Source of the DNA: an uncultured Planctomycetales bacterium
Lineage (GTDB): Bacteria > Omnitrophota > Gorgyraeia > Zapsychrales > Fredricksoniimonadaceae
DNA length: 64,000 nt
Direction: 5' to 3'
Assembly: GCA_964438075.1 (NCBI GenBank)
Contig: CAYTIW010000007.1
Location: forward strand, 1 to 64,000
Shown here: positions 10,717-29,380 of the stretch, piece after piece
Position numbering within the stretch: position 1 is the first letter of the stretch
How the letters are laid out: every line of letters starts with the position of its first letter
The notes under the pieces: model-generated
Seen by the model: only the letters and a program-made list of their open reading frames with translations
Told to the model about the DNA's origin: nothing
Database searches by the model: none
Position numbers and translations under genes: made by a program

Positions 10717-10730
10717 CAAAGGAGCCGGTC

Positions 10731-11486: not shown

Positions 11487-11498
11487 AAAGAGCTCGTA

Positions 11499-13791
<2,293 letters not shown>

Positions 13792-13793
13792 AG

Positions 13794-15539: not shown

Positions 15540-15634
15540 TGCCTTTTTGCCCATTTTTACTTCAGCCCCCTGTCCTGGTGTTTTGCATCGTTGGGATCGT
15601 TCGATGACTCTAAATAATGAAAGGGGCCGGTCCC

Positions 15635-16846
15635 ATGCCGGTTTTTGCCTATAAAGCCAAAAAAGACAATGCTGAGACGGTCCTGGGCGATATCGTGGCC
15701 CGGGATGCCAACGAGGCTATCGAGATGGTCAGCCGTCGCGGTCTCTTGCCGGTCGCCGTTGAAGAGAAGGAAGGAGAGGGTGCGGCATCTGTATTGGGAT
15801 TGTCTGCCGGAAATGTCCGTCGAAAAGACATCATGGTGTTCACGGGGCAGTTGGTGAGCTTGCTGAAGGCCGGGGTCCCTCTTCTGCAATCGATAGAACT
15901 GTTGTCAAGGAAGACACGCAACGCCAAACTAGCCTATGTTCTGTCCGATATCGCGCTGAACATACGCAACGGCAAAACTTTCTCCGCAGGACTGGAGGAT
16001 CATCCGGATATCTTTGAGCCCCTGTATACGGCTATGGCCCGGGCGGGTGAGGAAGGCGGGAGCATTCGGGAAATGCTGGCTGAGATGGCTGATTATTATC
16101 GCAAGCAGGAAGATATCGCCCTAAAGGTCCGCGGCGCGCTGACTTACCCGGCGGTCATGTTGGTAGCCGGTATCGGCACGGTCATTTTTGTGCTTACTTT
16201 CGTGCTGCCTAAGATCAAGGTGCTTTTCAAGGATATGCATACGGCGCTCCCCTTGCCAACGGTGATAGTACTCAAGTTGAGCGAGATGGTGCAGAATGGG
16301 TGGCCCGTGATCCTGGCTATTGCGGTCCTGGGCGCTTTATCATGGCAATCCCTCCGTCGCATGGCAGCTTTCCGGAGGGCCGTTGGCCAGGTCATTTTTG
16401 CCTTGCCATGGGTAAGGGAGTTTGCCTTGAAAATAGAGATGCAGAGGTTCACCAGGACCATGAGCTTCCTGCTGGAAGGCGGCATCCCTATATTGCGGGC
16501 TTTGGAGCTGGCCATCCCGACACTGTCAAATGAAACTTTGAAGGATGACCTGGGCAAGTGCAAAGATATGATAGCGGACGGCGCCACCTTTGGGGACACG
16601 CTAAGACGTTCCGTTCTCATACCTGATATAGTGCCGTCATTGGTAGCGGTAGGGGAAGAGGCCGGCGCGCTCGCACAATCACTCAGGGATATAGCGGAGA
16701 CTTACGAGCAGGAGATCGGCGAAAGCACCAAGGCCATGTCGACCCTGCTGGAACCGCTCCTGATTCTCCTGGTGGGATCGGTGATAGCCTTCATTGTTTT
16801 TGCTATGTTGATGCCTATATTTCAGATGGATATTTTCGCCCAATGA
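15635..16846 (+). CDS. gspF: Type II secretion / T4P platform protein (GspF/PilC family)
   Basis: I chose the MPVFAYKAKK start (ATG 15635, AAAGGGG about 9 nt upstream) over the ORF-track start at 15617. It has the typical GspF layout with two repeated cytoplasmic domains and three TM segments, and ends LLMPIFQMD. Confidence 0.88.
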   Translation: MPVFAYKAKKDNAETVLGDIVARDANEAIEMVSRRGLLPVAVEEKEGEGAASVLGLSAGNVRRKDIMVFTGQLVSLLKAGVPLLQSIELLSRKTRNAKLAYVLSDIALNIRNGKTFSAGLEDHPDIFEPLYTAMARAGEEGGSIREMLAEMADYYRKQEDIALKVRGALTYPAVMLVAGIGTVIFVLTFVLPKIKVLFKDMHTALPLPTVIVLKLSEMVQNGWPVILAIAVLGALSWQSLRRMAAFRRAVGQVIFALPWVREFALKIEMQRFTRTMSFLLEGGIPILRALELAIPTLSNETLKDDLGKCKDMIADGATFGDTLRRSVLIPDIVPSLVAVGEEAGALAQSLRDIAETYEQEIGESTKAMSTLLEPLLILLVGSVIAFIVFAMLMPIFQMDIFAQ

Positions 16847-17685
16847 CCCTGACATGGAAGTTCATAGCGCCGGTGGCCGTGTTATGGTTAGTTATGGTTA
16901 TGGGCCCCGCGCGGGCCGTTGAAGAGCCATTTCGTGAACTTAAGGGCGATCATTTTATTGTCAAATATTTGCTTGAGGATGAACGCAGCCGGGCTGTCCA
17001 GATATTAACCCGCGCGGAGTTATATTATAAGAGGGTGGCTGAAAGTATCGGTTATAACCGTTACCAGGAATACTGGACTTGGGAACGGCGCGTGACCGTA
17101 GTTCTTTATCCTGACCAACTGTCCTACGCCAAGTTCACCGGACAGCCACAGTGGTCCAAGGGGTATGCCAGCCGGGATTCCAAACTGTTCAGGACCAAGG
17201 TGATCGTTTCCTATGATGGCCAGCCTGAATTCCTGGAGGAGATATTGCCGCATGAGATCGCACATTTGATCCTGTGGGATTTTCTCGGATTTACCCGTAA
17301 GGTGCCGATATGGTTCGAGGAGGGCTTGGCCCAGCGGGAGGAGGATGGCAAGAGAGCCGTTGTGCAGCAGGCCATGAAGGAAGTTGTCATTTCCGGGAAC
17401 GATATCCCTTTTGCCACCTTCCATGGACTGGATGTGGGCAGGATCACGGACCCGGTGCAGGTTTCATTGTTCTATGCCCAAAGTCTCTCGGTGGTGGAGT
17501 TCATGATCGGTAAATACGGCCGTGATGCTTTCAGGAACTTTTGTCGTGAGATACGGGAAGGCCGGGCGTTCGAGGAGGCTTTGCCCCGCGCCTACCCGGC
17601 CATCTTTCGGACGGTGGATGATCTGGGATCGAAATGGAAGAATTATATGCAGAATGAAGTTGTTTCTTCAGGAGGCGGGCTATGA
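16843..17685 (+). CDS. Secreted HExxH zinc metallopeptidase-like protein (Peptidase_MA_2-like)
   Basis: ATGA-type 4-nt overlaps with both gspF (upstream) and gspG (downstream). Signal peptide VAVLWLVMVMGPARA, HEIAHL, then WFEEGLAQ as the third-ligand Glu context. Confidence 0.6.
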   Translation: MTLTWKFIAPVAVLWLVMVMGPARAVEEPFRELKGDHFIVKYLLEDERSRAVQILTRAELYYKRVAESIGYNRYQEYWTWERRVTVVLYPDQLSYAKFTGQPQWSKGYASRDSKLFRTKVIVSYDGQPEFLEEILPHEIAHLILWDFLGFTRKVPIWFEEGLAQREEDGKRAVVQQAMKEVVISGNDIPFATFHGLDVGRITDPVQVSLFYAQSLSVVEFMIGKYGRDAFRNFCREIREGRAFEEALPRAYPAIFRTVDDLGSKWKNYMQNEVVSSGGGL

Positions 17686-18089
17686 ATAACAGCAGAGGGT
17701 TCACGCTGGCAGAGATAATGCTGGTGGTCATCATAATAGGGGCCTTGGCGGCCATGGTCGTCCCCCGCTTGTCCGGCCGGTCCGAACAGGCCCGTATCGC
17801 CGTAGCCAAGGCGGATATAAAGACCAACATCCCTACCGCTTTAAAAATGTACGAGTTGGACAACGGAATGTATCCAACTACAGAGCAGGGTCTCCAGGCT
17901 CTCCGGGAAAAACCATCGTCCGCCCCGGCCCCCAGGTATTGGCACGGGCCTTATTTGGAACAGGATCCGGTGGACCCTTGGGGTAATCCTTACTTTTACG
18001 AATCACCGGGGACCCATCGCTCAGATTACGACTTATATTCCAAAGGCAAGGACCAGAATTCTCCCGATGGTTACATCACCAACTGGTAA
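17682..18089 (+). CDS. gspG: Major type II secretion pseudopilin GspG
   Basis: Prepilin leader MNNSRG|FTLAEIMLVVIIIGALAAMVVP with Glu+5. The GspG signature is LDNGMYPTTEQGLQAL...GPYL...DPWGNPYFYESPG...YDLYSKGKD. Confidence 0.9.
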   Translation: MNNSRGFTLAEIMLVVIIIGALAAMVVPRLSGRSEQARIAVAKADIKTNIPTALKMYELDNGMYPTTEQGLQALREKPSSAPAPRYWHGPYLEQDPVDPWGNPYFYESPGTHRSDYDLYSKGKDQNSPDGYITNW

Positions 18090-18528
18090 CAGGACCGCCC
18101 ACCGCCGAAGCTTTTTCCCGGACTCAAGGGTGGGGCTGACTTTCGTCGAGGTCATGGTCACCTCGGTAATACTATCGGCGGGGCTGGTGGCGATTTACCG
18201 GTCTTTCTTCATCGCAGCTGACGTCGTGCAGCATCTTTCCAACCGGCTTTACGCCCTGAATCTGCTGGAAAACAAGATCACAACGATAGAAAGGGATTTC
18301 CGGTCGCGGAAAGATTTCGATATCGGCCCCTTGACTGAAGACGCCGTGGTGAATAATCATCCCGTGGTTTTTCAGTATCGAGTGGAACTAAAGCCGGTGG
18401 GCAGTCTTCTGACAGTGTTCCAGCTCGACATTTCCTTGTCCTGGGAGGAAAGGGGAAGGTTTCGGAGCGTTTCCCGTTCGGCCTATTTTTCCGGTGTGAC
18501 CCCCTTGGAAAAGGGGGATGCCTCATGA
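18067..18528 (+). CDS. Minor pseudopilin (GspH/GspI-like)
   Basis: A basic leader is followed by G|LTFVEVMVTSVILSAGLVAI (Glu+5 present). The start is uncertain, with a 23-nt overlap with gspG. An in-frame GTG at 18130 would leave almost no leader. Confidence 0.55.
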   Translation: MVTSPTGNRTAHRRSFFPDSRVGLTFVEVMVTSVILSAGLVAIYRSFFIAADVVQHLSNRLYALNLLENKITTIERDFRSRKDFDIGPLTEDAVVNNHPVVFQYRVELKPVGSLLTVFQLDISLSWEERGRFRSVSRSAYFSGVTPLEKGDAS

Positions 18529-19148
18529 GCTTTCGACACGAAAGGGGCCTTATGAAATCCTGCCGTAACTCCGGCTTTACTCTGGCCGAGGTCCTTTTGG
18601 TAACGGTCCTTTTCGCTTCCATAGGGCTGGTAGTTTTCAACTGCCTGAACAATGGCCTCAAACTATGGATGAGGAGCCAGAGCCTGGTTGACGAGCAGGA
18701 TGCGATCGTTTTCTTTGACCGTATAGCCGGGCATTTGCGCAACGCCTTCCTTTATTCAGAGATCCAATTTGCCGGAGAGCCTGAACGGCTGGCATTCCCG
18801 ACGGTTGTTTATACCCCAGCGGACCGGGCAAGTTCGCGTGCCTGGGAAGGATACGTGGAACAGATAGGGATGGTCCGGTATTCCTTTGATGTCGCCCGAG
18901 GCAATGTCTTGCGTGAAGAGGCTGATTATTCTCTCGCCACCCGGGGCAGCTTCGGCCCGGCGAGAGTGGAAGTAAAAGGGGTCAAAGACCTCCGTTTCAG
19001 GTATTACTACTCCGGACACACAGAACCTTCCTTGACCGCTCACGATCAAAAGGCGCTGCCGGCCGGGGTGGAGGTGGAGATACGTTTGGCGGGAGACGGC
19101 GCTGAGAAGGTGTTGAAACGCTATGTGCCTATCCCGGCGGGGAGTTGA
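18525..19148 (+). CDS. Minor pseudopilin (GspJ-like)
   Basis: 4-nt overlap with the upstream gene. Leader ...CRNSG|FTLAEVLLVTVLFASIGLVVF. The ~200-aa size fits GspJ/PulJ-type minor pseudopilins. Confidence 0.6.
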   Translation: MSFRHERGLMKSCRNSGFTLAEVLLVTVLFASIGLVVFNCLNNGLKLWMRSQSLVDEQDAIVFFDRIAGHLRNAFLYSEIQFAGEPERLAFPTVVYTPADRASSRAWEGYVEQIGMVRYSFDVARGNVLREEADYSLATRGSFGPARVEVKGVKDLRFRYYYSGHTEPSLTAHDQKALPAGVEVEIRLAGDGAEKVLKRYVPIPAGS

Positions 19149-19149
19149 T

Positions 19150-20178
19150 ATGCGGGTATCGTCCAGCCAAGGCGGTTTTATATTGATCTTTACTCTGTGG
19201 GTGCTTGGTTTTCTTTCCGTTCTGGCTATCGCCGTCGGAATGGGTTCCCGGCAGAAGATCGCTTTTCTGGAAAGGCTGGAAGACCGCAGCCGGCAGCACC
19301 TGTCCGCAGAGGCCGGGGCCAAGAAGGCGCTCGCTTTGTTGGTCGACGATATCGAGAACAACAAGTTGGCTTTTAACGCCGAGGCCAAGTCCCGTAGGCA
19401 TAATAATCCGGCTGATTTCTCCGGCATTGTTGTCGGCGATAACGGATTCGATGTCTTACACACGGTTTATGACGAAACATCCGGCGCCATGGTGGAACGC
19501 TATGGGGTTTCCGACGAGCAGGGAAAACTCAACCTTAACAACGTCAGTGGCGAACAGCTGGCCAGGCTCTTGGCAGACGTTTTGGGCATGACGACCGAAG
19601 AGGCGCGGAAACAGTCCCAGGCTATTATAGACTGGCGCGATTATGGCAAACATGAAGCCGAAGGTTTTTTTAGCGACGATTATTATAAGAATCTCGAGCA
19701 TCCTTATGAGATGAAGGAGAAGCCCTTCGAACGCATCGATGAACTCTTGCTGGTGAAGGGGCTTGATAATAATAAGTACCATAAATTGCTGCCGTTCGTC
19801 ACGGTATGGGGAGATGGCAGGGTGAACATCAATACCGTTTCGGAGAGGGTCCTCGTTGCGCTGGGGCTGGATCCGGCAGTGGCAGAAAAGGTCCTTAAGG
19901 TCCGCCGGGGAACGGATGACCTTGAATCTACCAGCGACGACCATATATTCACCCGGGCTTTTGATGTTGCCGTTGAGGTCAAGGCGGTCTTGCCTCTGGA
20001 AGAACGCGAGATGCGGCAGATCGACGCCCTTAACACCCGCGGGCTGTTGTCGGCCAATTCTTTTTTGTATTCCATTCGAAGCCGGTCATTGCTGGCTGAC
20101 GGAAAAACAGGCGGGGCAGAAGTGAACATGGTTTTTGATGCTTTGGCCAATAAAATCGTATTCTGGTTCGAAAAATAA
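19150..20178 (+). CDS. gspK: Minor pseudopilin GspK-like
   Basis: Start taken at MRVSSSQGGFILIFTLWVLGFLSVLAIAV, with no Glu+5, as in GspK. The GspK-like segment is IDELLLVKGLDNNKYHKLLPFVTVWGDGRVNINTVSERVLVALGL. Confidence 0.7.
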   Translation: MRVSSSQGGFILIFTLWVLGFLSVLAIAVGMGSRQKIAFLERLEDRSRQHLSAEAGAKKALALLVDDIENNKLAFNAEAKSRRHNNPADFSGIVVGDNGFDVLHTVYDETSGAMVERYGVSDEQGKLNLNNVSGEQLARLLADVLGMTTEEARKQSQAIIDWRDYGKHEAEGFFSDDYYKNLEHPYEMKEKPFERIDELLLVKGLDNNKYHKLLPFVTVWGDGRVNINTVSERVLVALGLDPAVAEKVLKVRRGTDDLESTSDDHIFTRAFDVAVEVKAVLPLEEREMRQIDALNTRGLLSANSFLYSIRSRSLLADGKTGGAEVNMVFDALANKIVFWFEK

Positions 20179-20244
20179 ATCAGTTTTGGGTTGATTGACG
20201 GAAAAAGCTTAGTCTATAATGTAGCCATCAAATGCGGAGAAAAC

Positions 20245-21744
20245 ATGAAGCTTAAGCGGTCGCGATTCGTCAGCATAGCCATAAGTGCGACTTCGGTAAA
20301 GGTCGCTCTGATCAAAAGTTCAGGTTCCGTCGAGAGACTGGTAATCCGTAATATCGACAAGGGCAGTCCCGACAGCGCGCTGCAATCTGCTCTCACCGGC
20401 CTGCCAGTGAAAGGCGCGGATATCCTTTGTGTGATCCCGGGTGAGGTGGCGACTACCAAGAACTTGGAGATCCCCTCAGTCGATCATGAAGAAATTGAAT
20501 CTATCCTGGCCCTGCAGGCCTCCCGGCATACTCCTTTCAACAAAGACGAGATATTGACCTCTTATATCAAACTCGGCAACCCGAGATCAAATTTTACCCG
20601 GGTATTAATGATCGTTGTCAAACGGGACACCGTGAAAGATAAACTGGCTATCATCAAGCGCGCCGGTCTCAATATCAGCACGGTCATGTTCGTGCCTGAG
20701 GGCGTTGCGCGTTTTTATGCCGCGGCTCTCAAGGTGAAGAAGAACGATCTGCCGCTTGCGATAGTCGATGTCGGACTGCAGAACACGAATTTCATGATCG
20801 AATCGCAATCCACGATCGTGATGTCACGCAATATACCCATTGGCATTCAGCAATTTGGCACCGACACTGAAGCGTCCAACTTTCTGGTCAAAGAGATCAA
20901 GGCCTCCATGGATACTTATGAACAGGAGTCCGTCGACCGCAAGCCGGGACGTTTTATCCTTACTTCTAAACATGTGGCCTTGTCCGGGTTGGAGACGCAC
21001 ATCGCGGCCATTATGCCCGGCGCCCGTTGCGAAATCGTACCCTACCAGAATTTAGTGAAGTCAGGCAAGGAGGTTAAAGAAGTACTGGCGAAGAGTTTTT
21101 CCGATGATTCCGCGCTGGACGTCATCGCTCCGGCGGTGGTGGCGGCGAAATGTCAGGCCGAACTGGTCCCGCAGGATATCAAGGACCAGCGGGCGATCGT
21201 TGAAAAGGGACGGGCGACCTATATAGCGGGTGTGCTGATCACGCTTTTGTTGCTTTCGGTAGGAGGGGCTGTGATGAGCAAACTTTATTACAAGGATACT
21301 TTCCTGAAAAGGAACCTGATCGCCAAGTACGCCTCCCAAAAGCAGGAAGTCAAGGACATCGAGACTTTGATGCGCAAGACCAAGATCCTGCGTGAATATA
21401 TGCAGACCCGCGACATAGCGCTGGAATCTATCCGTGAACTCTATCGGCTCACTCCACCGGAGATCTATTTCAATAACATCAGCCTGGATGAGGCTGACGG
21501 CAGTGTTTCGATCCAGGGGATAGCCGATGACATGTCGAACGTGTTTTCCTTCGTGCCCGCACTTGAGGCGTCCGCATTGTTCGAGGGAGTTAAGACCAAG
21601 TCCACTTCGACGAAGAAAGACCGTGAAAAGACCGTGGCGGCATTCGAGATCGTGATGCAGTTGAGCAACCCCGACGGCAGAACAAAAGCCAAGCCGGTGA
21701 GTGAGGCGTCGGCTTCACCGGCGAAAACTGAGAAGGCAAAATAA
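20245..21744 (+). CDS. PilM-like actin-fold domain fused to a TM plus PilN-like periplasmic domain (functional GspL analog)
   Basis: Start taken at MKLKRSRFVSIAIS (GGAGA upstream). The N-terminal ~330 aa are PilM-like, there is a single TM (YIAGVLITLLLLSVGGAVM), and a PilN/GspL-like C-terminal region follows. Confidence 0.65.
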   Translation: MKLKRSRFVSIAISATSVKVALIKSSGSVERLVIRNIDKGSPDSALQSALTGLPVKGADILCVIPGEVATTKNLEIPSVDHEEIESILALQASRHTPFNKDEILTSYIKLGNPRSNFTRVLMIVVKRDTVKDKLAIIKRAGLNISTVMFVPEGVARFYAAALKVKKNDLPLAIVDVGLQNTNFMIESQSTIVMSRNIPIGIQQFGTDTEASNFLVKEIKASMDTYEQESVDRKPGRFILTSKHVALSGLETHIAAIMPGARCEIVPYQNLVKSGKEVKEVLAKSFSDDSALDVIAPAVVAAKCQAELVPQDIKDQRAIVEKGRATYIAGVLITLLLLSVGGAVMSKLYYKDTFLKRNLIAKYASQKQEVKDIETLMRKTKILREYMQTRDIALESIRELYRLTPPEIYFNNISLDEADGSVSIQGIADDMSNVFSFVPALEASALFEGVKTKSTSTKKDREKTVAAFEIVMQLSNPDGRTKAKPVSEASASPAKTEKAK

Positions 21745-21755
21745 GGAGTCCCGCC

Positions 21756-22391
21756 TTGATCAATAATTTTATATCCGGACTGAAACCGGGCCAAAGGAAG
21801 GTGCTGGCGGTCCTGGCCGTTGTGCTCATATTGGGCCTGTTCGGGGGCATATTCCTTTATCCGGCTTGGAAAAGTTCGAACAAGATCGACGAATTGATCG
21901 CCAAGGAAAAGGAGACCGTCCGTAAGAACGCCCTTTTCTTGGCGAAACGCGAAAAAGCCGTGAAGGAAGCCGCGGTGTTCAAGGATTATTTCACTAAAGA
22001 TGTGCGGAGTGAAGAGGAGGTGATCGCGGACCTTCTCAAGAGGCTTTTGCAGCTGGCCAATAATTCCGGGGTGCAGGTATCTAAACTTTCCACGCCTGTG
22101 CAGGAAATGCAAAAGGATTATCTATTGTATGTGGTTTCGGCAGACTGTACGGGCACATTAGAAAACCTGACCAATTTTATCTTCGCGATAAACAACTCCC
22201 CGGAATTGATCAAGGTCTCCAAGATGCACCTGGGGAGCAGTGCGAATGCCAAGAATGCCGGAACCATACAGGCCAGTCTGACCATATCCAAGATGATCAT
22301 CGGTGCCGATCCATCCGTCGAGGCAAAGAAACTTGTACGTGTCCAGGAAAAGAAAGAAGCGGCGAAGCCCGCTGCCACATCCAAGGAATAG
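21756..22391 (+). CDS. PilO/GspM-like bitopic assembly protein
   Basis: TTG start with AAGGAG 8 nt upstream. N-terminal TM (VLAVLAVVLILGLFGGIFLY), a coiled-coil segment, then a ~90-aa globular domain. The assignment rests on architecture and position only. Confidence 0.5.
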   Translation: MINNFISGLKPGQRKVLAVLAVVLILGLFGGIFLYPAWKSSNKIDELIAKEKETVRKNALFLAKREKAVKEAAVFKDYFTKDVRSEEEVIADLLKRLLQLANNSGVQVSKLSTPVQEMQKDYLLYVVSADCTGTLENLTNFIFAINNSPELIKVSKMHLGSSANAKNAGTIQASLTISKMIIGADPSVEAKKLVRVQEKKEAAKPAATSKE

Positions 22392-22425
22392 TCTTTTAGC
22401 CGCCGGCGTTTCGCCTGTCCCCATT

Positions 22426-23232
22426 ATGTCTCCACCATCCCGGATATTAATTAAGAAATCATTCCTTGTCCGCCTGATCTTCCTCCTGGTCTATTTCTGG
22501 TCCTTGCCTTGCCCGGCGGTGGAGGTCACGAAGGAGAATCTATTCCAGCTGGCCACTTTGGCTCTCAAGGATGGGGAATATGAGCATGCGGTGGAGTTCT
22601 TCAAAAAAGCCATCGAGTTAGATCCTAAATTCATCCCGGCCTACAACAGCCTCGGCATAATTTATGAGACCTCTGGTTTAAAGGACCTTAAAGAGGCGAT
22701 CCGTTATTTCAAACTGGCCACGGAGATATCCCCGTCGTCTCAGGAGAGCTGGAACAATCTGGGCCGCGCCTATTACAGCAAAGGCGAGTTCACCCAGGCG
22801 GAAAGGGCCCTTTTGCGTTCATTGGAGCTCGATCCGGCCCAGCCGGAGGTGGAGGTCTCGTTGGGATGGATCTATCTGCTGGGCCAGTCGCGAGGTGCCG
22901 AGGCTATCAGTCATTTTGAAAAAGGCGGGGCGTATAAGGATAACCCCATGGTCTATTACGGCATGGGGCTGTCCTACCTCATCAAGGGTGAGCGTTTCAA
23001 GGTGCTTGATTCCATTACTGAGCTGCGCAAGAGAAAGAGGGAAGACCTCGCGCTCAGGCTGGAGGATATGGTAAAGAACAAGATAAAGCTGTCCTCGCAG
23101 GAGGGTACTCCGTTGATCACGGGCCTGGGGGCTGAACACTCGGCACTGAAAGAGGAACTCAAGGCGATGGGGAGATCTGATGGAGATACCGACGGAATAA
23201 AGGTGCGGTTGCGGGGGCCGATCCGGTATTGA
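22426..23232 (+). CDS. Secreted TPR-repeat protein
   Basis: Start taken at MSPPSRILIKK with hydrophobic signal LIFLLVYFWSLPCPA. Several TPR units are present (YEHAVEFFKKAIELDPKF, AYNSLGIIY, SWNNLGRAYYSKGEFTQAERALLRSLELDP). The ORF-track start at 22303 would overlap the upstream gene. Confidence 0.7.
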   Translation: MSPPSRILIKKSFLVRLIFLLVYFWSLPCPAVEVTKENLFQLATLALKDGEYEHAVEFFKKAIELDPKFIPAYNSLGIIYETSGLKDLKEAIRYFKLATEISPSSQESWNNLGRAYYSKGEFTQAERALLRSLELDPAQPEVEVSLGWIYLLGQSRGAEAISHFEKGGAYKDNPMVYYGMGLSYLIKGERFKVLDSITELRKRKREDLALRLEDMVKNKIKLSSQEGTPLITGLGAEHSALKEELKAMGRSDGDTDGIKVRLRGPIRY

Positions 23233-23287: not shown

Positions 23288-24949
23288 ATGGGACAGCTGG
23301 TTAACAGGATCAATAAATATTTCCTTGACCGGGCAGAGTTGTGGATACTGGGCCTGGGCATTTTGCTGCGATTGAAGCATTACCTCGAGAACCGTTCTTT
23401 GTGGCTGGATGAAGCTTGCGCGGCTGTCAGCGTGGCCAGCCGCAGCTATAACGAGATATTGAGCCATTATGAGGTCATGCCGGAGTTCGCGCACCCTCCG
23501 ATGGTCTTCATGCTGATAGAGCGTTCACTGGTAGACCTCTTCGGCAATAACGAGATGTCATTGCGGTTGTTCCCGTTGCTTTGCGGGATCGCCGCCCTGT
23601 TGCTCTTTTTCCTGCTGACCCGCAGCATCCTTCCGCGGGGGGCGTTCCTGCTGGCACTGGCTCTCTTCGCCGTGATCGACCCCTTGGTCTATTATTCCGC
23701 CGAGCTTAAGCAGTATTCTACCGACCTGGCGGTCATGATAGCTCTTTTGTTCTATAGCGAGGAATTCATCAAGGAGAAATGCTGCTGGATAAAGGCCGGT
23801 GTCCTGGCATTGCTGGGAGCGGCGGTATTATGGCTTTCCAACGCCATGGTCTTTATGCTGGCATCCATGGCCGCGGTATTTCTCTGGAGGGCGGTCAGGC
23901 GCAGGGATTGGGCCGAACTTTTACGTCTGGGGAGCGCCTTTTTTGTGTGGGCGGCCAGTTTCGCGGCGGTTTATCATTTGTCCTTGGGCCATATGGTCGG
24001 GAATGATAAACTTAAGGCTACTTGGGAAGGAGCCCTTTTCAAGGGAAGTCTTTTTTCCGGCGACGCCTTGGCCTGGCTCTGGCAGGTGGTGAGCGAAAGT
24101 TTCCGCAATCCCTTGGGGCTGGCCTGGCCCTTGGCTGGGGCCGTTCTCTTTGTGGTCGGTGTGCTCAGCCTGGTCCGGAACAACTCTGCACGTGCGGCGC
24201 TGCTGGCGTTGCCTATATTTTTTGCTTTGGTGGCCGGCTGGCTAGGCAAGTATCCTTTTCGAGGCCGGGTGCTGCTTTTTTTGGTGCCCTGTTATCTGGT
24301 GCCTATCGCGGCTGGCGTTGAGGCCATAGCGGCAAAGATCGGGAATAAACGCTCCCATCGCGCCGTATGGGCGATATTGGCCATAGCGCTTCTGGCGTAT
24401 CCTCTTCAGGTCGCGGCGCGGAACTTCATTCAGGGCCGCGAATGGGTGGAGAACCGCCCGGCAATGGAGTTCTTTCGGGACCATTATGAGCCGGGGGATT
24501 TCGTGGTGATGAACACCTCGGCCCAGCCGCCGTTCTGGTATTATGTCGGCAGCCTGGGTATCGGGGTCGAACTGCGGCGTGAACCCATCGGCCGGTTGGA
24601 TGGCAAGACGGTGGAAGGGATGCGGGTCGCCAAGTTCGCCCGGGACATGGTAGCCACCAAGGACGGCCACCGTTTGGTAGCTTTCAGGTATGAGTACCAC
24701 ATTTTTAATGAGAAAGGCCTTTTCCGCCAGATGGTGCTCCGTAATGCCCGGGAGGCGTATTTCGTCCGCGACGACAGGGCAGTGGAGGGCCTTCCTGCCG
24801 GGAGGGTCTGGCTGGTGCTGTCCCAAGCCCCGGAGGATGACGACCGCGAGATCAACGGCATCATCCGGGATGCGTTTGACCGGCGGGCGAAAAGGCTGCT
24901 GAGCTGCGAACGTATGAATGCAGCTGTGTACTTATATGACATGCAATAG
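23288..24949 (+). CDS. GT-C fold membrane glycosyltransferase (GT39/ArnT/PMT-like)
   Basis: About 11 predicted TM segments in the N-terminal two thirds, an acidic first-loop motif LWLDEA, and a soluble C-terminal domain. It sits directly upstream of a polyprenol-phosphate GT2. Confidence 0.6.
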   Translation: MGQLVNRINKYFLDRAELWILGLGILLRLKHYLENRSLWLDEACAAVSVASRSYNEILSHYEVMPEFAHPPMVFMLIERSLVDLFGNNEMSLRLFPLLCGIAALLLFFLLTRSILPRGAFLLALALFAVIDPLVYYSAELKQYSTDLAVMIALLFYSEEFIKEKCCWIKAGVLALLGAAVLWLSNAMVFMLASMAAVFLWRAVRRRDWAELLRLGSAFFVWAASFAAVYHLSLGHMVGNDKLKATWEGALFKGSLFSGDALAWLWQVVSESFRNPLGLAWPLAGAVLFVVGVLSLVRNNSARAALLALPIFFALVAGWLGKYPFRGRVLLFLVPCYLVPIAAGVEAIAAKIGNKRSHRAVWAILAIALLAYPLQVAARNFIQGREWVENRPAMEFFRDHYEPGDFVVMNTSAQPPFWYYVGSLGIGVELRREPIGRLDGKTVEGMRVAKFARDMVATKDGHRLVAFRYEYHIFNEKGLFRQMVLRNAREAYFVRDDRAVEGLPAGRVWLVLSQAPEDDDREINGIIRDAFDRRAKRLLSCERMNAAVYLYDMQ

Positions 24950-24960
24950 GAAGAAATGAT

Positions 24961-25767
24961 ATGGCTATTGAAGTAGCGGTGATCATCCCGAGCTATAATG
25001 AACGTCCCAACGTCAAACCCATGCTGGAAAAACTAAGGGTTGCGCTCAATGGTATAGAGTGGGAAGTGATATATGTTGACGATAATTCTCCCGACGGCAC
25101 AGCTGAATGCGTATGGGAAGAGTCGCGCCTCGACCCAAGGGTCCGCTGCCTCAAGCGTATCGGCCGGCGCGGCCTGTCTTCCGCCTGCATCGAGGGCATG
25201 CTGTCCACTGCGGCGCCGTTCATGGCGGTGATGGATGGCGACCTTCAGCATGATGAAACTATCCTGCCCGATATGCTGGGGGCCCTCAGGACGGGAAAAG
25301 TGGATGTCATCGTCGGGAGCCGTTATGTGGCTGGGGGGGGCATAGAGGATTGGGCATTGCATCGCCAAGCGGCCAGCCGGTGGGCCACGCGTTTCGCCCA
25401 GTCAGTGGCCGGCATCCAGCTGCAGGACCCGATGAGCGGTTTTTTCATGCTGCGGAGGGATTTCTTCCAGAAATGCGTCGGTCAAATAAGCGGCAAAGGA
25501 TTCAAGATACTGTTGGATATCCTGATGTCTTCGCGGGAAAAGGTGAATGTGATAGAGATACCTTACAAGTTCCGGATGCGCCAGCACGGTAAAAGCAAGC
25601 TGACGCCGAAGGTCATCCTGGACTATTTCTACCTGGTGTTCTACAAGATCTGCCAACGCAATCCTTGGTTGCTCTGGTTACTGGTTTCCACTGTGATATT
25701 GCTGATGCTGGCGCTAGGGGCGCGCATGCACCTTTCCACCCCGATGGTAAAGACGACCTGGTGGTAA
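24961..25767 (+). CDS. GT2 polyprenol-phosphate mannosyl/glycosyl transferase (Dpm1/Ppm1/ArnC-like)
   Basis: VIIPSYNERPNV, YVDDNSPDGT, MDGDLQHD (DxD), and a C-terminal TM. Confidence 0.82.
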   Translation: MAIEVAVIIPSYNERPNVKPMLEKLRVALNGIEWEVIYVDDNSPDGTAECVWEESRLDPRVRCLKRIGRRGLSSACIEGMLSTAAPFMAVMDGDLQHDETILPDMLGALRTGKVDVIVGSRYVAGGGIEDWALHRQAASRWATRFAQSVAGIQLQDPMSGFFMLRRDFFQKCVGQISGKGFKILLDILMSSREKVNVIEIPYKFRMRQHGKSKLTPKVILDYFYLVFYKICQRNPWLLWLLVSTVILLMLALGARMHLSTPMVKTTWW

Positions 25768-25810
25768 ATGTAGACTGATCCGAGTTGTCAGGTCTGGTTC
25801 TTATCAAAAT

Positions 25811-25846
25811 AAAAAAACCTTCTTCCGGAATGGAAGAAGGTTTTTT
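25811..25846. terminator. Bidirectional rho-independent terminator
   Basis: A perfect 9-bp stem CCTTCTTCC (25818-25826) / GGAAGAAGG (25832-25840) with a 5-nt loop, flanked by an A7 run on the left and a T6 run on the right. It lies between the GT2 gene (+) and tRNA-Ala (-). Confidence 0.8.
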
Positions 25847-25894
25847 GTTTTGATGAGGCCGGACCTTTCGGCACGATGTCCGGCATATAAAAAC

Positions 25895-25971
25895 TGGTGG
25901 ACCGGATGGGGGTCGAACCCACGACCTCCTCATTGCGAACGAGGCGCTCTCCCAAACTGAGCTACCGGCCC
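25895..25971 (-). tRNA. tRNA-Ala (anticodon CGC), CCA encoded
   Basis: The reverse complement GGGCCGGTAGCTCAGTTTGGGAGAGCGCCTCGTTCGCAATGAGGAGGTCGTGGGTTCGACCCCCATCCGGTCCACCA folds as a cloverleaf. It has the G3:U70 Ala identity pair, anticodon loop TTCGCAA, and a GTTCGA T-loop. Confidence 0.92.
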
Positions 25972-26086
25972 ATATAGTGTATAAATATGTTCGAGCTGAA
26001 AATTTGCTCGAGAGGGGATATAGTAACAAAAGCATGGTAAAAAAACAAGTGTCTATCCGCGAAAACAAGAGCCCGCTCCGGCAGTC

Positions 26087-28618
26087 TTAGAGATCCTTGG
26101 GCCAGGATACTTCGTAGAGGTAGACGCGCGTCCGACCCGTGAGGTCGCGTTCGAGAGCGAAAGGATGGAAATATTTCAGCCCTTTGCCTTCGAAATAATA
26201 CATTTTGACTACCAGCGAATTGGCCAGGACCCGGTCCATCAGGACGACTTTGGGAATGCCTTCGTCCTTATAAAACACCAGGGAGTATCCCAGGTTAGCC
26301 CCGGACAATTTTTTCTCTACCACCGCTTTCTGATCATCGTCCAGGTAGACCACGCTTTGCGGTATGCCGCGGCCGAACTTTGGCGAATCTATCGTGGCGG
26401 TCATATCGGCCGTGTTTACGACAATGCCGTTCTCAAATATTATTTTAGGCCCGTCGCTGGCCATCGCCCCGATGGACTGCGATTGTTTGAAAGGCCCGCC
26501 GACCAGGCTCCAGAGGAAATCGACAAAGCCGGGAGAGGATTTTCCCGGCACTTTACTCAGCGCTTCCGGGTCCCGGTTGAGCCTTTCGATCTTGGCGAAG
26601 TCCCATTTTCCCACATATCCCAGCAGCACGTTCCCTTCGACTATTTCATGGTAGATGAGAACGTAGGAAGGAGGTGGCACGACCGCGCTGCCGTGGGTCA
26701 GGCTCAAAAGATGCGTGACATTCTGTTGGGGAAGGACCTTCAGGAGCGCTCGTTCCGCCTCGGCTTTTTTTAACCTGGTGATCTCTAAGATCAGCGGTAC
26801 CGCCTTGGATAGCGGCAGGTCCAGGCTTTGCAGGTATTCGGCGGCGCGGTTAGAACTGGTATTCAGCATGCGCAGTATACCCAGGGCATCACGTTCGTTC
26901 TGCGCCAGGTATACCTTGGTCATCCAGAATCCCTGTTCGCCGCGTATAGAGGCGCCGTCAAAGGTTACACGCCGCCGGCTGACGGCCTTGACAAAATGGC
27001 CCGGCGACCACCAGGTATTGACGATACTGTCGGGAGGGGAGTAGTCGCGCAGGCGGGTCAGCGCACGATCCCAAGTGGAATTGAAAATGGGGTTCAACAG
27101 CGAGCGTATAGTGGTATGGCTGATGATGATCGGCAAAGCCACCGATACTATTATGAGCGTCCCGAGGATCTTTTCCAGCATCACGGCGGGTTTCTCTGAC
27201 AGTCTGAACAGACCCGATAGCGCATGGCGGCCTTGCCAAATTTGATCCAACCCCAGAGCGAACAGGAGCGCGACGGGGGTGACGCTCAGCATGGCGAAAC
27301 GCTGGGCGCTCAGGCTGAGCACCAGGGTGCTGGCAAGGAAAATGGCCAGAGTGATCATTTCATCAGAAGGCGCTTTGCGTTTGAGCAGGGACATGACACC
27401 GAACCAGACCAGGGTGGCAATTGCCCCGAAGAATGGCACGGGCCCGCCGTTGAACTCCACGATCTCTTTCAGCGTGGCACGTTTCAGTTCTCCCACGACT
27501 ATGAAGAGGTCCGGCCAGTCCTTGAGCCTGGGGGCGGTGAATTTTTGCAGTTCTCCCCAGGCCGCGGTCATAGTCTCGAAGAACTGCGGCAGGCCGATCA
27601 TCATAGTGACGGCCAGCACAGGCACGGCGATGAACAGGGCCAACAAAAACCCTATACGCGGCAGGCGCTGCTCTTTCAGCAGCCAGGCCTTGCCGGCGAT
27701 GAGAACGACCGAGAAGACGGTCAGCGCCCAAAGATATCCCCAGCCCGGCCAGAAACGGGAATACAAGGCCGCTGTTAACGCCGAGAGAACGGAGAACAGG
27801 AGCAGTCGCCGCTTCTCGCTGGTGTTTTTAAGCGCCAGGAAGAAGAATGCCAGGCCAAGGAGCGGGAAAAGCACGGTATAGGTGTCGTTGTCGTACCAGG
27901 CATAGGTGCTGCGTTTAAGATATATCTGGGAAAGGACAAAAAAGACGCCAGCCGTGAAAGAGGAAAGCGGCGAACAGCCCATAGCATGGCAGGCCAGCAG
28001 GAATGCGGCTACCACCAGCGGCAAAAGGAAGATAGGGGTCCAGGCCACCCCGGACATAAGGTCGGTATCCGGAGCCAAGGCCCGTACGGTCCGGTATACC
28101 CAGGCTCCGACGTAAGGATGCCAGAGCTGGGGTTCCCAGAATCCCAGGGGAGCCAGCATCAGGTTGTTGAAATAGCGGCTGCCCTTAACCTGAGGGCTTA
28201 CGTCGCCTTCTTTCAGGATGTTCTCTGTTAAGTTCAGGAAATAATAGGAGTCTGACTCCTGCAGATAGCGTTTCTGGTTACCGGACCGCTGCGAGAGCTC
28301 ATATCCCAGCTCATCGAAAGCCTTGCGGAGTTTGGCATTATCCTTGCGTATTATCTCGTTGACCTTGGCGGATAAAAGGAGTGTCTTCTTGGCCGGAGGC
28401 AGCTCAGGGTACTGGGCATTGATTTGGGCGGCTATCTTGCTTCGCAAGTGGTTTATGACCAGGAGAGTGGCCTGTTCGTAGGCGTCCGAGGCAACATTGT
28501 GATATAGGGGATACAGGCGTACCTGTATCCCGATCATGCATATTGCCAAACCTATTAAGAGCCAGGTGATAAGTTTTCGCAGGGGATATCCGTTGGGCAT
28601 GGGGTCTGTTTGATTCAA
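26087..28618 (-). CDS. STT3/AglB/PglB-family oligosaccharyltransferase-like membrane protein (variant WWSPG motif)
   Basis: 843 aa with a multi-TM N-terminal half. There is an acidic motif in the long first external loop (LQESDSYYF). IVNTWWSPGHFVKAVSRRRVTFDGAS aligns to the WWDYG region of OSTs (..TWWDYGY.....S.....VDG..). A soluble C-terminal domain follows. Confidence 0.55.
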   Translation of the reverse strand: MNQTDPMPNGYPLRKLITWLLIGLAICMIGIQVRLYPLYHNVASDAYEQATLLVINHLRSKIAAQINAQYPELPPAKKTLLLSAKVNEIIRKDNAKLRKAFDELGYELSQRSGNQKRYLQESDSYYFLNLTENILKEGDVSPQVKGSRYFNNLMLAPLGFWEPQLWHPYVGAWVYRTVRALAPDTDLMSGVAWTPIFLLPLVVAAFLLACHAMGCSPLSSFTAGVFFVLSQIYLKRSTYAWYDNDTYTVLFPLLGLAFFFLALKNTSEKRRLLLFSVLSALTAALYSRFWPGWGYLWALTVFSVVLIAGKAWLLKEQRLPRIGFLLALFIAVPVLAVTMMIGLPQFFETMTAAWGELQKFTAPRLKDWPDLFIVVGELKRATLKEIVEFNGGPVPFFGAIATLVWFGVMSLLKRKAPSDEMITLAIFLASTLVLSLSAQRFAMLSVTPVALLFALGLDQIWQGRHALSGLFRLSEKPAVMLEKILGTLIIVSVALPIIISHTTIRSLLNPIFNSTWDRALTRLRDYSPPDSIVNTWWSPGHFVKAVSRRRVTFDGASIRGEQGFWMTKVYLAQNERDALGILRMLNTSSNRAAEYLQSLDLPLSKAVPLILEITRLKKAEAERALLKVLPQQNVTHLLSLTHGSAVVPPPSYVLIYHEIVEGNVLLGYVGKWDFAKIERLNRDPEALSKVPGKSSPGFVDFLWSLVGGPFKQSQSIGAMASDGPKIIFENGIVVNTADMTATIDSPKFGRGIPQSVVYLDDDQKAVVEKKLSGANLGYSLVFYKDEGIPKVVLMDRVLANSLVVKMYYFEGKGLKYFHPFALERDLTGRTRVYLYEVSWPKDL

Positions 28619-28636: not shown

Positions 28637-29380
28637 TTACTTTTTTTTGCCTGGCTTATCAAGGCTAATATCAGCAAAGTGGATCTTGTCGGCCGGGACC
28701 GCGAAGAGTTCCCGCTCCGCCGAAAGCCGTTTGGAACTGATGAGCCCGATGAGGCGGCCGGCACGATCGAAGACCGGTCCGCCGCTGTCACCGGAATAGT
28801 GGTTGATGTTCAGGCGCAACAGTTCGACTTTAAGGCCCCGTTCAGTCCGTCGGGTGGCAAGCCCGGATATTATACCGCCGGATATGGTGCCCCTTAAGAG
28901 GTCTGAATGACCAATAGTGGTGATCTTTTCCCCCAGAACGGTCTGGTTCGGTTCAGCGAATTCGACCGCTTTAAGCGGGCGGTCTGTTCTGATCTGGAGA
29001 ATGGAAAAATCGTCTTCTCTGGATATAAAGAGTATGCGGGCCGGGATCTCTTTACCGTCTCGGAAGGTCACTAGGATCTCCTGTGATCCGAATATGATAT
29101 GGGTGTTGGTGACGATATGGCCGTCGGAGGATATTATCACCCCGGCACCTTTTTTTTCCTGGAATTGCAGCCTCCTCGCGGTCATTGCCATCAGGCCTCC
29201 GGTCCGGGGATCTACCGTGACCCGGGCATCCGGGACAGAGGCCATCTGGTAGGTCTTGCCGGTGACGGTCACGACAGAATCGTACTTGTTCTGCAGCAGC
29301 TCAATGGCATTCATTTCGGCCGCCGGAGATGGTCCCGCAGCCAGGAATGTGAGGAGGGCCAGGAAGAAAGCGATAGGCAT
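28637..29380 (-). CDS. Secreted trypsin-like serine protease (S1 family, no PDZ domain)
   Basis: Signal peptide; catalytic His in HIVTNTH, Asp in EDDFSIL, Ser in GDSGGPVFD. Confidence 0.8.
   Translation of the reverse strand: MPIAFFLALLTFLAAGPSPAAEMNAIELLQNKYDSVVTVTGKTYQMASVPDARVTVDPRTGGLMAMTARRLQFQEKKGAGVIISSDGHIVTNTHIIFGSQEILVTFRDGKEIPARILFISREDDFSILQIRTDRPLKAVEFAEPNQTVLGEKITTIGHSDLLRGTISGGIISGLATRRTERGLKVELLRLNINHYSGDSGGPVFDRAGRLIGLISSKRLSAERELFAVPADKIHFADISLDKPGKKK

What the first reader, a model, noticed from the sequence alone, without database searches (positions are those of the whole stretch)
26087..28618. Bacterial STT3/AglB-like oligosaccharyltransferase homolog with WWSPG in place of WWDYG
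Outside a few lineages, bacterial STT3-family OSTs are uncommon. This 843-aa protein has the GT-C membrane half, an acidic EL1 motif (ESDSYYF) after an unusually long first loop, and the segment IVNTWWSPGHFVKAVSRRRVTFDGAS, which aligns with the WWDYG region.

In characterised OSTs the Asp of WWD hydrogen-bonds the +2 Ser/Thr of the sequon. Its replacement by Ser suggests altered acceptor recognition or a non-OST GT-C function. The gene is co-transcribed in orientation with a secreted S1 protease 18 nt upstream.
Basis: partly seen in the sequence, partly recalled or inferred. Interest (0 to 1): 0.5.

Follow-up and report, generated by a model that had tools for sequence, protein, structure and literature searches.

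The report
STT3 glycosyltransferase with remodelled sequon pocket
This Omnitrophota gene encodes a genuine relative of the enzyme that attaches sugars to asparagine in proteins; its catalytic centre is intact, but the pocket that normally reads the Ser/Thr of the N-x-S/T signal has been rebuilt across a whole phylum-wide family, so it probably glycosylates a different, still unknown target.

Summary
The ORF lies at 26087-28618 on the minus strand and encodes 843 aa from TTG, or more likely 837 aa from the ATG at 28600. It contains ESDSYYF and WWSPG.

It belongs to the STT3/AglB/PglB family:
- Pfam STT3 scores 75 bits.
- The AlphaFold2 model has pLDDT 89.
- The WW segment aligns on WWDYG.

About 190 diverse relatives, all from Omnitrophota where named, keep the catalytic residues: D123, D243-x-D245, [T/V/S]VGE377 and R440. 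None has the WWD aspartate; the motif is WW[P/S/A/C/T]PG. The DK/MI-type lysine is also no longer conserved.

A second Omnitrophota STT3 family, 22% identical, keeps WWD[F/Y]G and M-x-x-K. It usually has an AglJ-like GT2 just downstream and, in some loci, sequon-rich pilins upstream.

The query family forms a conserved operon with a secreted S1 protease (58 of 71 loci). It lies tail-to-tail with a type II secretion-like operon (60 of 71 loci).

My best reading is an active glycosyltransferase with non-canonical acceptor recognition. This is inferred, not demonstrated. I could not test whether both families occur in one genome.

The parts
26087..28618 (-). STT3-like GT-C glycosyltransferase ('family B'). 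843 aa from TTG at 28618; the probable true start is the ATG at 28600 (837 aa).
28250..28258 (-). First DXD-type motif in EL1: E121-S-D123, with D123 the catalytic/metal-binding Asp.
   Evidence: D123 is invariant in 42 of 42 close homologs and in all representatives. It aligns to the EFD of STT3A and D47 of AfAglB.
27884..27892 (-). Second DXD-type motif in EL2: D243-N-D245.
   Evidence: It aligns to SYDNE of STT3A and to D161-H-H163 of AfAglB. DxD is found in about 183 of 189 representatives.
27488..27499 (-). TIXE/SVSE-equivalent motif in EL5: V374-V-G-E377.
   Evidence: V375, G376 and E377 are invariant. The family consensus is [T/V/S]VGE. The outgroups have TVAE or TVGE.
27299..27301 (-). 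R440, the equivalent of the Arg that binds the phosphate of the lipid-linked donor.
   Evidence: R440-F441 are invariant and align to the NRF of AfAglB, which contains R426.
26999..27013 (-). W536-W-S-P-G540, which replaces WWDYG.
   Evidence: It aligns on WWDYG in 3aag, 2zag, 3vu0, 6s7o and 5gmy. Family tally: WWPPG 109, WWSPG 56, WWAPG 8, WWCPG 7, WWTPG 3. D occurs only in the 4 outgroup sequences.
26948..26959 (-). D554-G-A-S557, in the position of the DGGK motif.
   Evidence: F553, D554, G555 and A556 are invariant. It aligns to VDGGKH of CjPglB. The Lys is absent in this family and also in family A, which has FDGQS.
26621..26644 (-). I659-V-E-G662-N-V-L-L666, the helix equivalent to the DK/MI motif.
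   Evidence: Family A and the outgroups have M-x-x-K here, with the K aligned to G662. In family B this position varies (G/Q/K/S/N).
28637..29380 (-). Secreted trypsin-like (HtrA-like, no PDZ domain) serine protease, the first gene of the two-gene operon.
   Evidence: Trypsin_2 E 1.7e-24. Signal-like N-terminus. H94/D124/S199 are conserved in at least 90% of 60 syntenic orthologs, with short or overlapping intergenic gaps. It sits upstream on the same strand in 58 of 71 loci.
25812..25846 (.). Bidirectional terminator-like hairpin between the convergent GT2 and STT3-like genes.
   Evidence: 15-16 bp stem with T-runs on both strands.
13794..23232 (+). Type II secretion / type IV filament-like operon: T2SSE, T2SSF, Peptidase_MA_2, pseudopilins, T2SSK, PilM-N fusion, PilO/T2SSM-like and TPR protein. 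It converges on the STT3-like gene.
   Evidence: Pfam hits. Prepilin-type N-termini. TPR, PilO, PilMN and T2SSK lie on the opposite strand downstream of the STT3-like gene in 60 of 71 species-level loci.
23288..25767 (+). PMT_2-type GT-C (23288-24949) plus a GT2 resembling polyprenyl-phosphate sugar synthases (24961-25767), inserted between the TPR gene and the STT3-like gene.
   Evidence: Pfam and NCBIfam hits, with weak AglJ, PgfS and ArnC-like matches. Present at this junction in only 9 (PMT_2) and 7 (GT2) of 71 loci.

Best explanation
The gene encodes a catalytically competent, single-subunit glycosyltransferase of the STT3/AglB/PglB family.

Proposed mechanism. Thirteen TM helices hold the lipid-linked glycan donor. 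D123, D243 and D245 bind the divalent metal. R440 binds the donor phosphate. D123 and E377 activate the acceptor. All of this works as in known oligosaccharyltransferases.

What differs is the periplasmic Ser/Thr-binding pocket. The WWD aspartate is replaced by a small or rigid residue followed by an invariant Pro (WW[P/S/A/C/T]PG). The opposing DK/MI-type Lys is no longer conserved. The enzyme therefore most likely does not select acceptors through the +2 hydroxyl of N-x-S/T.

The sequon-pairing half of EL5 (WP...VGE) and the amide-activating Asp/Glu pair are conserved with the canonical-motif sister family. For that reason I think the acceptor is still a polypeptide, probably at Asn, in a different sequence context.

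The enzyme is made from a two-gene operon with a secreted S1 serine protease. It is genomically tied to a type II secretion-like system, so it probably acts on envelope or secreted proteins.

Shown: family membership, fold, motif conservation and loss, and synteny. Inferred: catalytic activity, a protein acceptor, non-canonical specificity, and any functional link to the protease or secretion system.
For: Family and fold.

Catalytic residues are invariant in about 190 representatives that are each under 50% identical to one another.

The Asp is never present in the family. Pro is the commonest residue there (109 of about 190), and Pro cannot hydrogen-bond through a side chain.

The sister Omnitrophota family A aligns end to end (hhalign probability 100%, E 1e-113, 22% identity). 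Family A and the archaeal-type outgroups keep WWD[F/Y]G and M-x-x-K. The loss is therefore specific to this clade.

In CjPglB, the single changes D459V, Y460N, Y460C and G461D abolish activity (PMC3527161). WWDYG plus DK/MI form the Ser/Thr pocket (PMC8342417).

Positions conserved between families A and B include W368-P369, V375-G376-E377, D123, D243, D245 and R440.

Operon with the protease: 58 of 71 loci, catalytic triad conserved, intergenic gaps as short as a 4-nt overlap.

The convergent secretion operon is present in 60 of 71 loci. Genes further upstream are each found in at most 14 of 80 loci.
Against: There are no biochemical data. The two Trp and the Gly of the motif are retained, and S/T/C at the third position could still contact a hydroxyl, so residual N-x-S/T recognition is not excluded.

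No lipid-linked oligosaccharide biosynthesis cluster lies beside the gene in most loci. The donor is therefore unknown.

Pseudopilins of the adjacent secretion operon show no N-x-S/T enrichment, which says nothing positive about what the substrate is.

The convergent arrangement means the secretion genes are not co-transcribed with it.
Confidence: 0.5

Rival explanations
1. It is an ordinary N-x-S/T oligosaccharyltransferase. The two retained Trp residues, plus Ser/Thr/Cys at position 3 in some members, are enough to bind the +2 hydroxyl, and the motif change is neutral drift.
For: W536, W537 and G540 are invariant. The catalytic residues and the TIXE-like motif are intact. Characterised Desulfovibrio PglBs tolerate motif variation: WWDWG, DGGR, and NL in place of DK/MI (PMC12229607).
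Against: Every characterised variant keeps the Asp. The Asp occurs in none of about 190 family members, and Pro is the majority residue. The partner Lys/Ile position is also unconserved. The sister family in the same phylum keeps both elements under strong conservation. D459V and Y460N/C single mutants of CjPglB are inactive.
Confidence: 0.15
2. It has left protein glycosylation. Either it transfers the glycan to a non-protein acceptor such as an envelope glycan or lipid, or it acts mainly as a hydrolase that releases free oligosaccharides from the lipid carrier into the periplasm.
For: Both elements of the Ser/Thr pocket are lost. The Pfam STT3-PglB_core model falls below threshold (16.8 bits against 23). 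OSTs are known to hydrolyse lipid-linked oligosaccharide (PMC8342417). In some loci a polyprenyl-phosphate sugar GT2 and a PMT_2 GT-C sit at the same junction.
Against: The EL5 segment that pairs with the acceptor peptide backbone, and the Asp/Glu pair proposed to twist the Asn amide, are conserved with the canonical-motif family. The periplasmic domain as a whole is retained and highly conserved. The partner gene is a protease, which points to protein substrates.
Confidence: 0.25
3. It is a catalytically dead pseudo-enzyme retained as a scaffold or receptor, for example for the protease or the secretion machine.
For: A motif regarded as essential in OSTs is lost.
Against: All metal-binding, donor-binding and acceptor-activating residues are invariant across sequences down to about 32% identity. 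That pattern is not expected without catalysis.
Confidence: 0.05

Closest known systems
Archaeoglobus fulgidus AglB (PDB 3WAJ, 5GMY, 7E9S), an archaeal single-subunit OST
   Different: WWDYG is replaced by WWSPG. The DK-type Lys is not conserved and the DGGK Lys is absent. EL1 is about 130 aa with three extra helices. The organism is a bacterium.
Campylobacter lari / C. jejuni PglB (PDB 5OGL, 3RCE, 3AAG), the bacterial N-OST
   Different: No Asp in the WW motif and no M-x-x-I. There is no pgl-type glycan assembly cluster next to it. Only 13-16% identity.
Desulfovibrio PglB homologs (PMC12229607)
   Same: Bacterial single-subunit OSTs whose conserved motifs deviate from the canonical ones (WWDWG, DGGR, NL in place of DK/MI) and whose acceptor preference differs from CjPglB.
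   Different: They keep the WWD Asp and still require N-x-S/T. Their relaxation concerns the -2 position only.
Omnitrophota STT3 'family A' (e.g. P0043, P0201, P0236), uncharacterised
   Same: Same phylum, same length and architecture, including the long EL1. End-to-end profile alignment (probability 100%, E 1e-113). Shared catalytic residues.
   Different: Family A keeps WWD[F/Y]G (119 of 119 matched sequences) and M-x-x-K. An AglJ/DPM1-like GT2 lies directly downstream in 38 of 46 loci. Prepilin genes lie upstream in 8 of 26 metagenome loci and in the 4 loci I looked up. Those pilins are enriched in N-x-S/T (44 observed against 21.6 +/- 4.2 in shuffles). No protease partner was seen in the four looked-up loci.

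Membership tests
STT3/AglB/PglB oligosaccharyltransferases (Pfam PF02516) | Significant match to the STT3 transmembrane-domain model | tested here: met
   PF02516 E 9.9e-21, 75.1 bits against a cutoff of 24.5, covering residues 116-455.
STT3/AglB/PglB oligosaccharyltransferases (Pfam PF02516) | GT-C fold with 13 TM helices plus a C-terminal periplasmic globular domain of the OST type | tested here: met
STT3/AglB/PglB oligosaccharyltransferases (Pfam PF02516) | Two DXD-type acidic motifs (EL1 and EL2) that coordinate the metal | tested here: met
   E121-S-D123 and D243-N-D245 align to the corresponding residues of STT3A and AfAglB and are conserved family-wide.
STT3/AglB/PglB oligosaccharyltransferases (Pfam PF02516) | TIXE/SVSE motif with a catalytic Glu in EL5 | tested here: met
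   The query has VVGE377; the family has [T/V/S]VGE with E invariant. The outgroups have TVAE or TVGE.
STT3/AglB/PglB oligosaccharyltransferases (Pfam PF02516) | Conserved Arg that contacts the donor phosphate (AfAglB R426) | tested here: met
   R440 is invariant and aligns to the NRF of AfAglB. This rests on sequence alignment only.
STT3/AglB/PglB oligosaccharyltransferases (Pfam PF02516) | WWDYG motif, whose Asp binds the +2 Ser/Thr | tested here: not met
   The query has WWSPG. The family has WW[P/S/A/C/T]PG with no Asp among about 190 sequences. W, W and G are retained.
STT3/AglB/PglB oligosaccharyltransferases (Pfam PF02516) | DK or MI motif (Lys or Ile facing the WWD pocket) | tested here: not met
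   The aligned position is G662 in the query and varies in the family (G/Q/K/S/N). Family A and the outgroups have M-x-x-K.
STT3/AglB/PglB oligosaccharyltransferases (Pfam PF02516) | DGGK motif, or the DNxTxNxS/T equivalent | tested here: inconclusive
   D554-G555 are invariant, but the motif reads DG[A/G][S/T] with no Lys. The canonical-motif family A also lacks the Lys (FDGQS), so this feature does not discriminate.
STT3/AglB/PglB oligosaccharyltransferases (Pfam PF02516) | Match to the Pfam STT3/PglB/AglB core (periplasmic) domain, PF21436 | tested here: not met
   16.8 bits against a cutoff of 23, E 0.01. Family A member P0043 passes with 27.4 bits.
STT3/AglB/PglB oligosaccharyltransferases (Pfam PF02516) | Transfers a lipid-linked glycan to Asn in N-x-S/T | not testable with these tools
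   This needs biochemistry or glycoproteomics.
Campylobacter-type pgl system | OST gene embedded in a glycan-assembly cluster (initiating transferase, GTs, flippase) | tested here: not met
   No such cluster is in the window or beside orthologs. Only an optional GT2 + PMT_2 pair occurs, in 7-9 of 71 loci.
TIGR04154 archaeosortase-A-associated STT3 | Score above the model cutoff | tested here: not met
   33.8 bits against a cutoff of 450.
Other GT-C families (PMT, ArnT, DPY19, Aft/Emb) | Best profile or structure match to that family | tested here: not met

The most novel reading that the evidence does not exclude
Family B is a new specificity class of STT3 enzymes: a bacterial oligosaccharyltransferase that glycosylates periplasmic or secreted proteins at a signal lacking the +2 Ser/Thr determinant. 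It may be a different sequon or a different acceptor residue. It would work together with a dedicated secreted serine protease and a type II secretion-like machine. In that case Omnitrophota would run two parallel STT3 pathways: a canonical one that acts on pilins, and this non-canonical one.
Probability: 0.35. Interest if true: 0.8.

Novelty: new variant of a known kind. Interest (0 to 1): 0.6.

Why it matters
The WWD motif is treated as strictly conserved and essential in all oligosaccharyltransferases, and it explains why N-glycosylation needs N-x-S/T.

This natural, strongly conserved, phylum-wide STT3 family keeps the catalytic centre but has replaced that pocket. It is a ready-made experiment on how acceptor recognition can evolve. 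If the enzyme is active on proteins, it would also be a candidate tool for glycosylating sites that current enzymes cannot use.

The result also shows that STT3 homologs are common in Omnitrophota. Bacterial N-glycosylation has been studied in Campylobacterota and Desulfobacterota, and I found no literature on Omnitrophota STT3 proteins.

Finally, it gives a testable link between STT3 enzymes and type IV filament or secretion systems in bacteria, reminiscent of pilin and archaellin N-glycosylation in archaea.

Tried and rejected
1. Plus-strand reading of the interval. It is full of stops. The gene is on the minus strand.

2. The 151-aa ORF downstream (25613-26068, minus strand). It has no family hit and a low-complexity translation. 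It overlaps the 3' end of the GT2 gene and the terminator hairpin. I treat it as spurious.

4. Pseudogene or dead enzyme. Rejected because the catalytic residues are invariant.

5. Adjacent pseudopilins as canonical N-x-S/T substrates. There is no sequon enrichment: 28 observed against 31.4 +/- 5.0 in shuffles.

6. Co-occurrence of families A and B in one genome. I compared contig names, assembly accessions and protein accessions. I ran a metagenome scan with a family A DNA pattern and a six-frame motif scan of all 183 held loci. No contig or assembly was shown to carry both, and no held locus has both. The question stays open; this is not a negative result.

7. Literature searches for WWSPG, Omnitrophota plus OST/STT3, and bacterial STT3 surveys. 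No description of this family was found in the held library.

8. Functional coupling to the window's PMT_2 + GT2 pair. The pair is present at this junction in only 7-9 of 71 loci, so it is not part of the conserved core.
Full report
OBSERVATION

The interval 26087-28618 holds one long ORF, but on the minus strand. The plus-strand translation is broken by stops. The minus strand reads through 843 codons from TTG at 28618. The closest homologs are 837 aa, which fits a start at the ATG at 28600.

- ESDSYYF at residues 121-127.
- IVNTWWSPGHFVKAVSRRRVTFDGAS at residues 532-557.

The gene immediately upstream on the same strand (28637-29380) is a 247-aa trypsin-like serine protease. It has a signal-like N-terminus. 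Its stop codon is 18 nt from the TTG, or 36 nt from the ATG.

A bidirectional terminator-like hairpin (25812-25846) separates the gene from a convergent GT2 gene. The 151-aa ORF listed between them has no family hit and a low-complexity translation, so I treat it as spurious.

WHAT IT IS

The protein matches Pfam STT3 well above threshold: 75.1 bits against a cutoff of 24.5.

A profile of 42 homologs (alignment A1) finds the following, in each case in two pieces:
- Human and canine STT3A, E 2.5e-9.
- A fungal STT3.
- A. fulgidus AglB, E 5e-7.

The first piece covers the EL1/EL2 catalytic region. The second places WWSPGHF directly on WWDYGYQ or WWDYGHW. The single sequence also aligns its WW segment to WWDYG of C. 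jejuni PglB, P. furiosus AglB and AfAglB-S2.

An AlphaFold2 model built on A1 is confident, with pLDDT 89.1 and pTM 0.86. It has 13 hydrophobic helices, and EL5 lies between TM9 and TM10.

| Search | Top matches | Next-best GT-C families |
|---|---|---|
| Foldseek vs PDB | PglB 5OGL first (E 6e-19, TM 0.68 on the target), then yeast and human STT3 and AglB | DPY19, AftA and ArnT follow |

MOTIF ANATOMY

The defining motifs are taken from PMC8342417.

| Motif | Query | Status |
|---|---|---|
| First DXD (EL1) | E121-S-D123 | Retained; D123 invariant |
| Second DXD (EL2) | D243-N-D245 | Retained |
| TIXE/SVSE (EL5) | V374-V-G-E377 | Retained; E377 invariant |
| Donor-phosphate Arg | R440 | Retained; invariant |
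| WWDYG | W536-W-S-P-G540 | W, W and G kept; Asp and Tyr lost |
| DGGK | D554-G-A-S557 | DG kept; Lys lost |
| DK/MI | I659-x-x-G662 | Key Lys/Ile position lost |

The retained residues were placed by alignment to STT3A and AfAglB. They are conserved in the close homologs.

Across about 190 representatives from a full HMM search of 1.8 billion cluster representatives, the tallies are:
- D123 is invariant.
- DxD is found in about 183 of 189.
- [T/V/S]VGE has its Glu invariant.
- R440 is invariant.
- The WW motif is WWPPG in 109, WWSPG in 56, WWAPG in 8, WWCPG in 7 and WWTPG in 3.
- Asp appears only in the four distant outgroup sequences.

The most common residue at the Asp position is Pro, which cannot hydrogen-bond through a side chain. 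The next residue is an invariant Pro in place of Tyr. In C. jejuni PglB the single changes D459V, Y460N, Y460C and G461D each abolish activity (PMC3527161).

A SISTER FAMILY WITH THE CANONICAL MOTIF

The nearest non-family hits keep the Asp:
- P0042, named as a Woesearchaeota archaeon: WWDFG.
- P0043 and P0044: WWDFG.
- P0045: WWDYG.

A search with P0043 showed that it heads a second large family, which I call family A. All named members are also Omnitrophota.

Of the 120 family A sequences scanned, 119 matched the motif pattern, and all 119 have WWD[F/Y/C/L]G followed by FDGQ[S/T].

Families A and B align end to end (hhalign probability 100%, E 1e-113, 801 columns, 22% identity). A joint alignment of 70 plus 70 sequences shows the catalytic set and the EL5 segment W368-P369...V375-G376-E377 conserved identically in both. 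Family A and the outgroups have a conserved M-x-x-K at the DK/MI position. In family B the Lys position (G662 in the query) varies (G/Q/K/S/N).

Both halves of the Ser/Thr pocket therefore changed specifically on the branch leading to family B, while the catalytic centre stayed fixed. The long EL1 is shared by A, B and the outgroups, so it is not tied to the WWSPG change.

GENOMIC CONTEXT OF FAMILY B

A scan of one genome per GTDB species found 143 loci. The 80 best all come from Omnitrophota MAGs. Some record titles read 'uncultured Planctomycetales', one 'Lysobacterales', and two only 'bacterium'.

- In 58 of 71 loci with enough upstream sequence, the protease gene lies directly upstream on the same strand.
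- In 60 syntenic orthologs the His/Asp/Ser triad is at least 90% conserved. N-termini look like signal peptides. The gap to the STT3-like gene is short, often a 4-nt overlap.
- In 60 of 71 loci with enough downstream sequence, a TPR gene lies downstream on the opposite strand, within 1 kb in 48. In most of these it is followed by PilO-like, PilM-N and T2SSK genes. It is the tail of a type II secretion-like operon, as in the window at 13794-23232.
- The arrangement holds down to 33% protein identity.
- Genes further upstream of the protease are each found in at most 14 of 80 loci. The conserved block is therefore specifically [protease-STT3] facing [T2SS...TPR].
- The window's PMT_2 GT-C and its polyprenyl-phosphate-sugar-synthase-like GT2 (23288-25767) occur at this junction in only 9 and 7 of 71 loci. 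They appear in two different gene orders.
- No pgl-type glycan assembly cluster is nearby.

GENOMIC CONTEXT OF FAMILY A

In the four loci I looked up, the WWD-type gene follows a run of prepilin-like genes. These belong to a PilM/PilO/secretin/T2SSE/T2SSF operon. The gene is followed by a GT2 (with a C-terminal TM domain in three of the four) and by further sugar-modifying, methyltransferase or radical-SAM genes, plus a flippase-like gene in one locus.

Among 80 further metagenome loci:
- The GT2 is directly downstream in 38 of 46.
- Prepilin-like ORFs lie within 3 kb upstream in 8 of 26.
- Those pilins carry 44 N-x-S/T sequons against 21.6 +/- 4.2 in composition-preserving shuffles (z 5.4; 16 sequences, some of them related).
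- The pseudopilins of the family B loci show none (28 against 31.4 +/- 5.0).

This fits family A as a conventional N-OST that acts on pilins. It shows that family B is not doing the same to its neighbours.

HOW IT MOST LIKELY WORKS

Shown: membership of the STT3 family, the fold, intact catalytic residues, a remodelled Ser/Thr pocket, and an operon with a secreted protease.

Inferred:
- The enzyme is active. The catalytic residues are invariant down to about 32% identity.
- It still binds a polypeptide. The EL5 sequon-pairing segment and the Asp/Glu pair proposed to activate the Asn amide are conserved with family A.
- It selects acceptors without the +2 hydroxyl.
- Its substrates are periplasmic or secreted proteins connected with the protease or the secretion system.

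I put about 0.5 on this reading as a whole. The rivals are:
- A non-protein acceptor or a dedicated lipid-linked-glycan hydrolase, 0.25.
- An ordinary N-x-S/T OST despite the motif, 0.15.
- A dead scaffold, 0.05.

COMPARISON WITH WHAT IS KNOWN

The closest solved relatives are AfAglB, PglB and STT3B. The enzyme works like them at the catalytic centre. It fails two or three of the periplasmic-domain criteria (WWDYG, DK/MI, and the Pfam core-domain threshold).

Desulfovibrio PglBs show that motif drift accompanies changed acceptor preference, but they keep the Asp and the N-x-S/T rule.

Databases label these proteins 'STT3 domain-containing protein' or give COG-style OST names. I found no paper describing WWSPG or WWPPG variants, or STT3 proteins in Omnitrophota. 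A preprint on Omnitrophota giant genes notes conserved type II secretion-like loci but does not mention STT3.

LIMITS

- I could not obtain model coordinates to inspect the pocket.
- I could not show whether families A and B co-occur in one genome.
- The donor glycan is unknown.
- All functional statements are inferences from sequence, predicted structure and synteny.

VERDICT

This is a new variant of a known kind. Interest is about 0.6.

Noticed in passing
L087 9001-11514; L089 9001-11508; L100 10001-12529; L101 3389-5905: A second Omnitrophota STT3 family keeps the canonical WWD[F/Y]G. It sits after prepilin genes of a secretin-containing type IV filament operon and before an AglJ/DPM1-like GT2 and other glycan-biosynthesis genes. 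The adjacent pilins are about twofold enriched in N-x-S/T (z 5.4). This looks like an undescribed bacterial pilin N-glycosylation system.
   Followed up: partly
window 1-7083 (+): An ORF of at least 2360 aa runs off the window start. It gives only repeat-like, zero-stretch Pfam hits (Lysostaphin_N, Ntox33). It may be part of an Omnitrophota 'giant gene'. A preprint reports such genes near type II secretion-like loci (10.1101/2023.11.21.568195).
   Followed up: partly
window 23288-25767 (+); compare L013 9110-11429, L015, L019: A PMT_2-type GT-C plus a GT2 resembling polyprenyl-phosphate sugar synthases is inserted between the TPR gene and the STT3-like gene in a minority of genomes. It occurs in two different gene orders (TPR-PMT_2-GT2 and TPR-GT2-PMT_2), which suggests repeated recruitment of glycosylation genes to this junction.
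   Followed up: partly
window 38694-43205 (-): A second PMT_2-type GT-C (41760-43205) lies upstream of two roughly 495-aa ORFs. One has B12-binding and radical SAM domains (38694-40184). The other has no Pfam hit (40181-41662).
   Followed up: no
window 52000-56000: A low-GC stretch (0.395, against 0.50-0.56 elsewhere) contains three ORFs without Pfam hits: 52581-53432, 54126-54689 and 54708-55490. It may be acquired DNA.
   Followed up: no
window 8449-15539 (+): ATP synthase-like genes run straight into the T2SSE ATPase gene on the same strand. They comprise an alpha/beta-type gene at 8449-9915, an OSCP-like gene at 10731-11486, a gamma gene at 11499-12356, and a beta-type gene with a V/A-type C-terminal hit at 12367-13791.
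   Followed up: no
window 16843-17685 (+); also L005 17745-18506, L006 18270-19100: A Peptidase_MA_2 (zinc metalloprotease-like) gene is conserved inside the type II secretion-like operon, between T2SSF and the major pseudopilin. This is an unusual component for such operons.
   Followed up: no
P0314 / P0252; P0319 / P0320: Two family A proteins have NCBI accessions only 1303 apart (MDD4940951.1 and MDD4939648.1). Two near-identical copies carry locus tags of one MAG (AMJ95_00355 and AMJ95_08175, SM23_72). Some genomes may therefore hold more than one family A gene.
   Followed up: partly
L019, L027, L028, L039 and about 25 other loci: Many GTDB-representative MAG records that carry this Omnitrophota-type locus are titled 'uncultured Planctomycetales bacterium', and one 'Lysobacterales'. 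These are probably placeholder or wrong taxonomic labels in the source records.
   Followed up: no
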